Assembly: GCA_964016885.1 (NCBI GenBank)
Contig: OZ024751.1
Coordinates: 36,704,001 to 36,768,000, forward strand
Length of the DNA: 64,000 nucleotides
From: Eledone cirrhosa
Lineage: Eukaryota
Reading direction: 5' to 3'
A program made the translations under genes and the position numbers. The notes under the pieces are model-generated. The model saw only the letters and a program-made list of their open reading frames with translations, searched no databases and had not been told where the DNA came from. Positions 27,282 through 28,230 of this stretch are shown here, piece after piece; the first letter of the stretch is position 1, and every line of letters starts with the position of its first letter.

Positions 27282-28230
27282 ATAAAAACAAATAACGAAA
27301 CGAAATTAAATTTCGTTTCGTTTGTAACTCACTTTTGTATGACTGACGCTTAAACAATTAAGTTAAAAGTGTACATCCACATATGTATACTGAAATACTA
27401 GTATGCATATAAATACACACACGTATACATATGTACATGTACCGAGTTTTTCACTGGACACTTTACTGTGAGTGTCTAGCTAGTCTGTATGTAACCAAAC
27501 AGACAAACCGGGTTTTAGAGTCATACGGGTTTTCAAGGAAACACCTTTCCTCTATTCTCCAGAGAGCCAGACAGGAATATTGGACTAGTTTCGATGTTAT
27601 TACATCTCATCAGCAATATATACCCATCTTCCGGCTTCTCTAGAGAATCGTAAAAGCACATATCGTTATATGCTTTTTCTATGAAAATTAGTAGTGGGCA
27701 GACTAATTTGCATAGAACGTGAGTCATTGTACGCACCGGTTCAGCGGAAACGATAAAAACAAATAACGAAACGAAATTAAATTTCGTTTCGTTTGTAACT
27801 CACTTTTGTATGACTGACGCTTAAACAATTAAGTTAAAAGTGTACATCCACATATGTATACTGAAATACTAGTATGCATATAAATACACACACGTATACA
27901 TATGTACATGTACCGAGTTTTTCACTGGGCACTTTACTGTGAGTGTCTAGCTAGTCTGTATGTAACCAAACAGACAAACCGAGTTTTAGAGTCATACGGG
28001 TTTTCAAGGAAACACCTTTCCTCTATTCTCCAGAGAGCCAGACAGGAATATTGGACTAGTTATGACTCTAAAACCCGGTTTGTCTGTTTGGTTACATACA
28101 GACTAGCTAGACACTCACAGTAAAGTGTCCAGTGAAAAACTCGGTACATGTACATATGTATACGTGTGTGTATTTATATGCATACTAGTATTTCAGTATA
28201 CATATGTGGATGTACACTTTTAACTTAATT
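27282..28230 (-). mobile_element. Non-coding 471-bp-unit partial tandem with hammerhead and 170-bp inverted 5' arm (retrozyme-like / non-autonomous PLE)
   Basis: 27282-27590 is repeated at 27753-28061 (period 471, two substitutions noted); 28061-28230 is the reverse complement of 27356-27525; (TA)n on both sides. Confidence 0.85.
27569..27629 (-). ncRNA. Type I hammerhead ribozyme motif, canonical core
   Basis: agatggg tat atattg-CTGATGA-GATGT aata ACATC-GAAA-CTAG-TC^caatat t cctgtct; GUC site, predicted cleavage between 27583 and 27582, stem I extended across an internal loop. Confidence 0.9.

What the first reader, a model, noticed from the sequence alone, without database searches (positions are those of the whole stretch)
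27282..28230. 471-nt-unit, ORF-less, hammerhead-bearing partial tandem in (TA)n: candidate circular-RNA (retrozyme-like) mobile element
Seen: about 1.65 tandem units (period 471) with a canonical type I hammerhead on the minus strand (27569-27629: GUC site, palindromic ACUAGU stem III, stem I extended across an internal loop). The upstream copy stops at 28061, only ~8 nt past the equivalent cleavage site, and switches to a 170-bp inverted copy that ends in (TA)n. The unit contains several hairpins (aacgaaacgaaat/atttcgtttcgtt; ttctatg-aaattagt/actaattt-catagaa; tggacact/agtgtcta) and no meaningful ORF. Known: PLE pLTRs and non-LTR retrozymes carry such hammerheads, and retrozymes give circular RNAs. 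Inference: a self-cleaving ~471-nt monomer, possibly circular, was copied for more than one round by a PLE-type RT and finished by fold-back. I do not recognise this family.
Basis: partly seen in the sequence, partly recalled or inferred. Interest (0 to 1): 0.88.

Follow-up and report, generated by a model that had tools for sequence, protein, structure and literature searches.

The report
Twin-armed hammerhead retrozyme, Penelope footprint
This is one of about two thousand insertions of a 470-base non-coding repeat with a hammerhead ribozyme motif, typically built as two facing arms that start at two fixed points; it is likely a protein-free jumping element ('retrozyme') copied twice from one RNA by a borrowed Penelope-type enzyme, and its predicted self-cutting and circular RNA are untested.

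Summary
In detail: a 471-nt unit in 1.66 tandem copies, a type I hammerhead on the minus strand, a 170-nt inverted arm, (TA)n on both sides. The genome has about 2,000 such insertions and 9,298 hammerhead cores; a sister clade about 67% identical is larger. Insertions have two convergent arms, one starting at unit position 1 (A), one at 70-75 (B): 75 of 99 sampled loci were A+B, none A+A or B+B, 24 one-armed, interrupted or unresolved. Arms of one locus differ as little as its tandem units (0.9%), against about 5-10% between loci, and in 16 of 53 loci neither arm can be a copy of the other, so fold-back is rejected for the family. An autonomous Neptune-type Penelope element here shows the same architecture but no sequence link; the partner was not found. 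Verdict: a new family of animal non-LTR retrozymes, likely inserted by twin-primed Penelope reverse transcription, probably of a circular monomer. No RNA evidence was obtained. The scan noted such elements before, in this genome and another.

The parts
27213..27281 (.). (TA)n target microsatellite, left flank (no target-site duplication can be read inside it)
   Evidence: sequence; TRF AT run 26957-27284
27282..28061 (-). Arm A: 1.66 tandem units, starting at fixed site A (unit position 1); predicted RNA sense is the minus strand, cDNA would run left to right
27282..27355 (-). [quoted passage not shown]
27294..27322 (.). 13-bp hairpin inside the tail, in the most conserved part of the unit (mean major-allele frequency 0.98 over positions 1-30)
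27282..27752 (-). Complete 471-nt unit, 36.5% GC, no ORF, no tRNA
27565..27631 (-). Type I hammerhead motif: CUGAUGA 27613-27607, stem II, GAAA 27592-27589, palindromic ACUAGU stem III, GUC 27585-27583, predicted cut between 27583 and 27582, stem I extended
27753..28061 (-). Partial second unit (positions 1-309); holds the 3' strand of stem I and the GUC triplet but no catalytic core
28061..28230 (+). Arm B: inverted arm, unit positions 75-244, starting at fixed site B at the right-hand (TA)n; 1-nt overlap with arm A at the junction
28231..28329 (.). (TA)n target microsatellite, right flank

Best explanation
This is one insertion of an abundant ~470-nt non-coding hammerhead repeat, likely a non-LTR retrozyme that a borrowed Penelope-type RT/endonuclease copied into a (TA)n run by priming twice on one RNA. 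Shown: tandem units, conserved hammerhead, (TA)n flanks, two convergent arms with one A start and one B start, one sequence variant per insertion. Inferred steps: (1) the minus strand of arrays is transcribed and self-cleaves, probably best as a dimer through the palindromic stem III; (2) monomers are probably ligated into circles by a host ligase; (3) a Penelope-type protein nicks both strands of (TA)n and starts one cDNA at site A and the other at site B, 70-74 nt apart on the same structured RNA; (4) each cDNA runs for a variable length, often past the cleavage site and for several units; (5) the two cDNA ends are joined through 0-5 nt of microhomology, leaving the tandem-plus-inverted structure with a tail at one end. 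Retrozyme moved by a PLE with two primed arms: about 0.8. Circular template within that: about 0.6.
For: Copy number: 1,983 exact A ends in (TA)n; 854 B ends on the one strand that is counted once; 9,298 hammerhead cores. End rule: 60 of 79 A-anchored loci end in B and none in A; 15 of 20 B-anchored loci end in A and none in B (includes 5 by-eye corrections and 5 loci closed from coordinates, see full report). One template: within-arm divergence 0.89%, cross-arm 0.91% (56 loci), median to other loci about 5-10%; 38 distinct template haplotypes in 40 multi-pass loci; 102 of 112 within-locus variants are singletons where both arms have at least 2 passes. Not fold-back: 16 of 53; arm lengths uncorrelated, rho 0.03, 49 loci. 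Ribozyme under selection: stem II pair AU 60 / UA 32 / broken 1 among 94 haplotypes, position 17 C 70.5, U 38, G 0.5; across both clades 6 of 14 pairs change on both sides with the core invariant. PLE footprint: an autonomous Neptune-type family has a hammerhead, two ends about 60 nt apart and one of each in 4 two-armed loci. Literature: a PLE protein cleaves and extends both strands and starts at two internal sites that define the tail (PMC11167929); retrozymes give circles and PLEs are the proposed movers (PMC7229834).
Against: No autonomous partner with shared sequence was found. Cleavage, transcription and circles are unobserved. Six of 19 long arms carry variants shared by several units, one with a 7-unit period, pointing to DNA-level duplication or multimeric templates. 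Arm ends are mildly enriched near the cleavage site (13 of 152 in 291-311, p 0.019; 25 of 152 in 270-312, p 0.003; windows chosen after looking), as cleaved linear RNA would give. The Rfam score is below the gathering threshold. 24 of 99 loci are one-armed, interrupted or unresolved. Two identical RNAs from one active source would also give matching arms.
Confidence: 0.78

Rival explanations
1. Same element and enzyme, but the template is an uncleaved linear multimer read from young, homogeneous arrays; no circle is needed and the hammerhead is incidental to insertion.
For: In vitro a PLE used unprocessed RNA and ribozyme mutants did not change insertion (PMC11167929). In-register shared variants in 2 of 22 loci. 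Long arrays exist that could serve as masters, up to about 30 units. Mild excess of arm ends near the cut site.
Against: 38 haplotypes in 40 loci, each uniform inside its locus, need a monomer bottleneck and re-amplification. 13 of 19 long arms hold only singleton variants. No junction is repeated among 76 loci (one near-identical pair). The hammerhead is conserved with covariation across clades about 67% identical.
Confidence: 0.3
2. One reading: one cDNA primed at A, then fold-back or self-primed copying, trimmed at site B by the endonuclease.
For: In this window the inverted arm lies wholly within arm A and is identical to copy 1; B within A in 28 of 53 loci. Self-priming and endonuclease resolution have been proposed for PLEs (PMC3846280; PMC8557442).
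Against: In 16 of 53 loci neither arm fits inside the other. Arm ends coincide within 4 nt in only 5 of 76 junctions. Arm lengths are uncorrelated.
Confidence: 0.07
3. Truncated terminal repeats (pLTRs) of an ordinary autonomous Penelope-like element, with no life of their own.
For: The architecture is that of PLE insertions. Retrozymes are reported to be related to pLTRs in Xenopus (bioRxiv 10.64898/2026.07.22.740005).
Against: In the 100 end-anchored loci mapped the unit runs into the next unit, the other arm or (TA)n; one interrupted locus (L049) abuts a decayed RT fragment in mid-gene. 20 of 20 sister-clade loci show no ORF as part of the unit. No match to the 30 Neptune-type loci outside inserted sister copies and short low-complexity hits.
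Confidence: 0.06
4. A satellite spread at the DNA level (unequal exchange, rolling-circle DNA), with the inversion made by hairpin repair in (TA)n.
For: Periodic shared variants in 6 of 19 long arms.
Against: Dispersed insertions with fixed A and B ends, the same two-end form in autonomous PLEs, compensatory changes in RNA stems.
Confidence: 0.03

Closest known systems
Animal non-LTR retrozymes (Cervera and de la Pena 2020, PMC7229834: passages and Discussion read; Li, Clavereau and Pollet 2026, bioRxiv 10.64898/2026.07.22.740005: parts 1-3 of 5 read)
   Same: Short ORF-less tandem units, a type I hammerhead per unit, low GC, dimers to long multimers, thousands of copies, PLEs in the same genome; proposed circle-to-tandem-cDNA cycle.
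   Different: Unit slightly above the 150-450 bp of the 2020 paper (inside the 51-972 bp of the 2026 preprint). Two-armed inverted insertions with fixed A and B starts are not described in what I read ('inverted' occurs 0 times in the 2020 main text). Stem III is the weak one-pair, palindromic-loop type described there for amphibian ribozymes that work as dimers. RNA not observed here.
Endonuclease-positive Penelope-like elements (Neptune, Nematis, Poseidon, Naiad; PMC8557442 passages, PMC3846280 passages, PMC11167929 parts 1-2 of 4)
   Same: Partial tandems with an adjacent inverted copy, a tail at one end only, (TA)n targets, type I hammerhead upstream of the start sites, two internal start sites.
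   Different: No ORF; tail 70-74 nt rather than 30-40 (other families in this genome have about 60-92); in vitro the anole element showed no strand difference in start site, whereas here each two-armed insertion had one A and one B start.

Membership tests
non-LTR retrozyme | [quoted passage not shown] | tested here: met
   471-nt unit; 174 hammerhead-to-hammerhead spacings of 462-477 nt; arrays to about 30 units
non-LTR retrozyme | type I hammerhead in each unit | tested here: met
   9,298 exact cores
non-LTR retrozyme | [quoted passage not shown] | tested here: not met
   not met by this copy (second motif cut at 28061); met by many other loci of the family
non-LTR retrozyme | no coding capacity, no LTRs, low GC | tested here: met
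   frames of at most 88 aa, GC 36.5%, no tRNA; PBS and PPT were not searched for separately
non-LTR retrozyme | self-cleavage and linear plus circular monomer RNA | not testable with these tools
   needs RNA data or bench work
non-LTR retrozyme | target-site duplication when present | tested here: inconclusive
   insertions lie inside (TA)n, where a duplication cannot be read
non-LTR retrozyme | homology to the pLTR of a PLE of the same genome | tested here: inconclusive
   none found in the loci examined; only one autonomous family was examined in depth among 37,410 endonuclease candidates
EN+ Penelope-like element (autonomous) | RT plus GIY-YIG ORF | tested here: not met
EN+ Penelope-like element (insertion footprint) | partial tandem plus inverted copy, tail at one end, two internal start sites | tested here: met
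EN+ Penelope-like element (insertion footprint) | (TA)n target bias as in Neptune and Naiad | tested here: met
   in the 30 loci chosen by unit similarity alone (24 distinct) both termini lie in TA runs except in a few truncated copies

The most novel reading that the evidence does not exclude
Each insertion is the record of one circular RNA reverse-transcribed at the same time by the two subunits of a Penelope RT-endonuclease dimer, one obligately primed at site A and the other at site B from opposite nicks, both rolling round the circle. That one mechanism would explain how retrozymes move and why Penelope elements leave tandem-plus-inverted copies with a tail at one end only.
Probability: 0.35. 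Interest if true: 0.75.

Novelty: new member of a known kind. Interest (0 to 1): 0.5.

Why it matters
How retrozymes are mobilised, and how Penelope elements form tandem/inverted copies with a one-sided tail, are both stated as open in the papers read (PMC7229834 Discussion; PMC8557442 passages). This family ties the two together in genomic data: a retrozyme with a countable PLE footprint, a one-A-one-B rule and one template variant per insertion. A 470-nt RNA with two mapped start sites is a small, ready template for an in vitro test of two-strand priming and of rolling-circle reverse transcription. The class itself is known and the PLE link was predicted, which limits the surprise.

Tried and rejected
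Partner search: (a) a motif from the A-B region meant to be shared by both clades gave 23,307 hits but matched only the sister clade; 20 sampled loci were all ORF-less repeats. (b) A hammerhead pattern excluding both clades gave 240 hits (control 10); of the first 30 loci 23 were variants of the two clades by their matched text and the 7 others showed no hammerhead-linked PLE. (c) One Neptune-type family, 30 loci: no link. (d) A profile HMM of 69 monomers over all fetched loci gave family copies and low-complexity hits in the part of the output I saw; the output was cut. Naiad- and Poseidon-like families seen in flanks were not examined in depth. Strand test by counting G-U changes did not discriminate (14 one-sided pairs on minus, 15 on plus; only the energy favoured minus, -106 vs -76). 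Hybrid insertions (one arm retrozyme, one arm autonomous PLE) were looked for in 10 one-armed loci; several had a very short second arm instead and none was a clear hybrid. Rfam miRNA hits over TA-rich hairpins were set aside as far below gathering scores. Pfam did not score the 1,167-aa Neptune-type frame; its type rests on motifs read in the translation and on PF01541 and PF00078 hits to fragments of the same family. Literature searches for this family or this footprint in a retrozyme returned only the papers cited; supplements were not opened and may list such families. My impression that the host is a cephalopod is recalled from the microsatellite landscape and comes from no call.

Full report
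Observation. The region 27282-28230 is as described. Positions 27282-27590 repeat at +471 with two mismatches, and 28061-28230 is an inverted copy of unit positions 75-244. Both ends abut (TA)n. The minus strand carries a type I hammerhead motif (Rfam HH9, E 1.1e-5, 32.9 bits against a gathering score of 52), with the predicted cut between 27583 and 27582. There is no ORF above 88 aa stop to stop and no tRNA. The monomer folds at z -8.9 on the minus strand and -7.0 on the plus strand. This copy has one complete hammerhead only, so it could not release a monomer by itself in cis.

The family. A search of the own genome (3.0 Gb) gave 813 candidates, of which 40 were scored; their full-length units were 93-100% identical to this one. 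Exact patterns count 1,983 A ends joined to (TA)n, 854 B ends on the reverse strand (the forward count of 1,635 counts sites more than once) and 9,298 hammerhead cores. A sister clade, 67-74% identical and collinear, has 23,307 hits for one motif, units of 407-529 nt (15 spacings) and no ORF in 20 of 20 sampled loci.

Architecture. I fetched 80 of the first 100 listed A ends (chromosome C1; one locus, L081, duplicates L080 and was dropped) and 20 of the 53 exact B75 ends, and mapped each against a multimer of the unit. Automatic calls for the far end of the 80 A-anchored loci were 52 B, 14 none, 8 running off the fetched stretch, 5 interrupted, 1 A. By eye, the single 'A' (L110) was a tie and reads as a short B end; L074 and L075 were stopped early by internal TA runs and end in B; L126 ends in B after an insert. 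Five run-off loci (L035, L047, L084, L094, L116) have a facing B end in the coordinates. Result: 60 of 79 A+B, 0 A+A, 12 one-armed or unclear, 4 interrupted, 3 unresolved. Of 20 B-anchored loci 14 end in A, L051 is B+A followed by an older A+B insertion, 2 are one-armed, 3 interrupted, 0 B+B. The sister clade gave 5 of 5 A/B pairs with a rough pattern. Site B has registers at unit positions 70, 73 and 75, each compatible with a few bases of TA microhomology.

One template per insertion. In 76 two-armed loci, units within an arm differ by 0.89% and the two arms by 0.91% (56 loci with both measures; Wilcoxon p 0.76), whereas the median distance to arms of other loci is about 5-10%. The own arm was the single best match in only 27 of 74 loci, because close relatives and short overlaps tie, but it was always among the nearest 12 of up to 75. 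Forty loci with three or more passes hold 38 distinct haplotypes. Where both arms have two or more passes (22 loci, 5,546 site-locus cells), 102 variants are singletons, 5 occur in both arms and 5 in several units of one arm. In 19 long arms 189 variants are singletons; 13 arms have none shared, 6 have shared ones, one of them with a 7-unit period (the 48 shared calls include alignment-gap artefacts). Uniform loci drawn from a diverse pool need a monomer bottleneck and re-amplification, most simply a circle (inference). The exceptions show that multi-unit templates or DNA-level duplication also occur, and young uniform arrays as linear templates are not excluded.

Not fold-back. In 53 complete A+B loci, arm B fits inside arm A in 28, arm A inside arm B in 9, and neither in 16. 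Arm lengths are uncorrelated (49 loci, medians 593 and 563 nt). Junction positions are spread over the unit; the two arms end within 4 nt of the same position in 5 of 76 loci; overlaps of 1-5 nt occur in 36 of 76. For this window alone fold-back cannot be excluded, since arm B lies inside arm A.

The ribozyme. Among 94 haplotypes, stem II pair 324/313 is AU in 60, UA in 32 and broken in 1; several other stems covary; position 17 is C or U and almost never G (70.5, 38, 0.5 locus votes), and mostly A in the sister clade (A 33, U 11, C 2, duplicates not removed). On 16 hand-picked sequences of both clades the core is invariant apart from the free position, 93% of cells pair and 6 of 14 pairs change on both sides; slid controls give 36-49%. 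These counts reflect few independent events, and the first pair of stem II is unpaired in the sister clade. ACUAGU is invariant: one pair capped by a palindromic tetraloop, the form described for amphibian retrozyme ribozymes that cleave well as dimers (PMC7229834, passages).

The mover. PLE insertions are partial tandems with an adjacent inverted copy and a tail at one end, and Neptune and Naiad prefer (TA)n (PMC8557442, passages; PMC3846280, passages). A purified PLE protein cleaves and extends both strands and starts at two internal RNA sites that delimit the tail (PMC11167929, parts 1-2 of 4). In this genome a young autonomous family with RT and GIY-YIG motifs (Neptune or Nematis type by its cysteine linker) has a hammerhead-like motif after its ORF and two ends about 60 nt apart. 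Of 14 fetched loci 4 had both ends classifiable, and all 4 were one long plus one short end; 2 had one unclear end and the rest showed one end, a tandem or none. Other (TA)n-adjacent families show end pairs about 60-92 nt apart. No sequence link between any of these and the unit was found, so the partner is unidentified.

Comparison and verdict. The element meets the sequence criteria of animal non-LTR retrozymes as a family, though this copy lacks a second complete hammerhead. Circles and PLE mobilisation were proposed for that class (PMC7229834 Discussion; bioRxiv 10.64898/2026.07.22.740005, parts 1-3 of 5). Five literature searches showed no description of this family or of a two-armed footprint in retrozymes; supplements were not seen. 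Earlier scan notes describe a 472-base family in this genome and a 470-base one in another with the same reading; a look-up by sequence found nothing. New member of a known kind; interest 0.5.

Noticed in passing
L055:4400-5001, L065:3850-4400, L131-L150: Sister retrozyme clade, 67-74% identical, units 407-529 nt, GUA or GUU cut triplet, same A/B architecture; 23,307 hits for one motif.
   Followed up: partly
G000:C1:5738088-5752752 (L035): A single insertion of about 14.7 kb: a B arm of about 30 units and a 344-nt A arm; shared variants recur with a 7-unit period.
   Followed up: partly
L214:1888-5391 (G000:C1:48763300-48769900): 1,167-aa open frame of a young Neptune-type PLE with an asparagine-rich insert, RT and GIY-YIG motifs; 37,410 endonuclease candidates in the genome.
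   Followed up: partly
window 26867-27170: Directly left of the element, about 80-90 nt inverted arms flank a (TA)n run; their ends resemble the short end of the Neptune-type family.
   Followed up: no
window 28330-28436: A 107-nt imperfect hairpin directly right of the element (weak Rfam mir-9080 hit, far below threshold); possibly a small inverted-repeat element.
   Followed up: no
window 25090 (+) and 5605 (-); L095, L124, L037, L047, L070: Further hammerhead-like motifs of other repeat families, several with AT-rich palindromic stem III.
   Followed up: no
L063:2900-4200: An unrelated tandem-plus-inverted non-coding repeat abuts a truncated arm of this family.
   Followed up: no
L051, L066, L031: Insertions of the family cluster: a younger copy sits against the A end of an older one, and two or more insertions lie within a few kb.
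   Followed up: partly
L080 and L081: Two identical insertions 18 kb apart, a segmental or assembly duplication.
   Followed up: no
window 36274-43824: 7.5-kb C/A-rich minisatellite with periods 18, 36 and 240.
   Followed up: no
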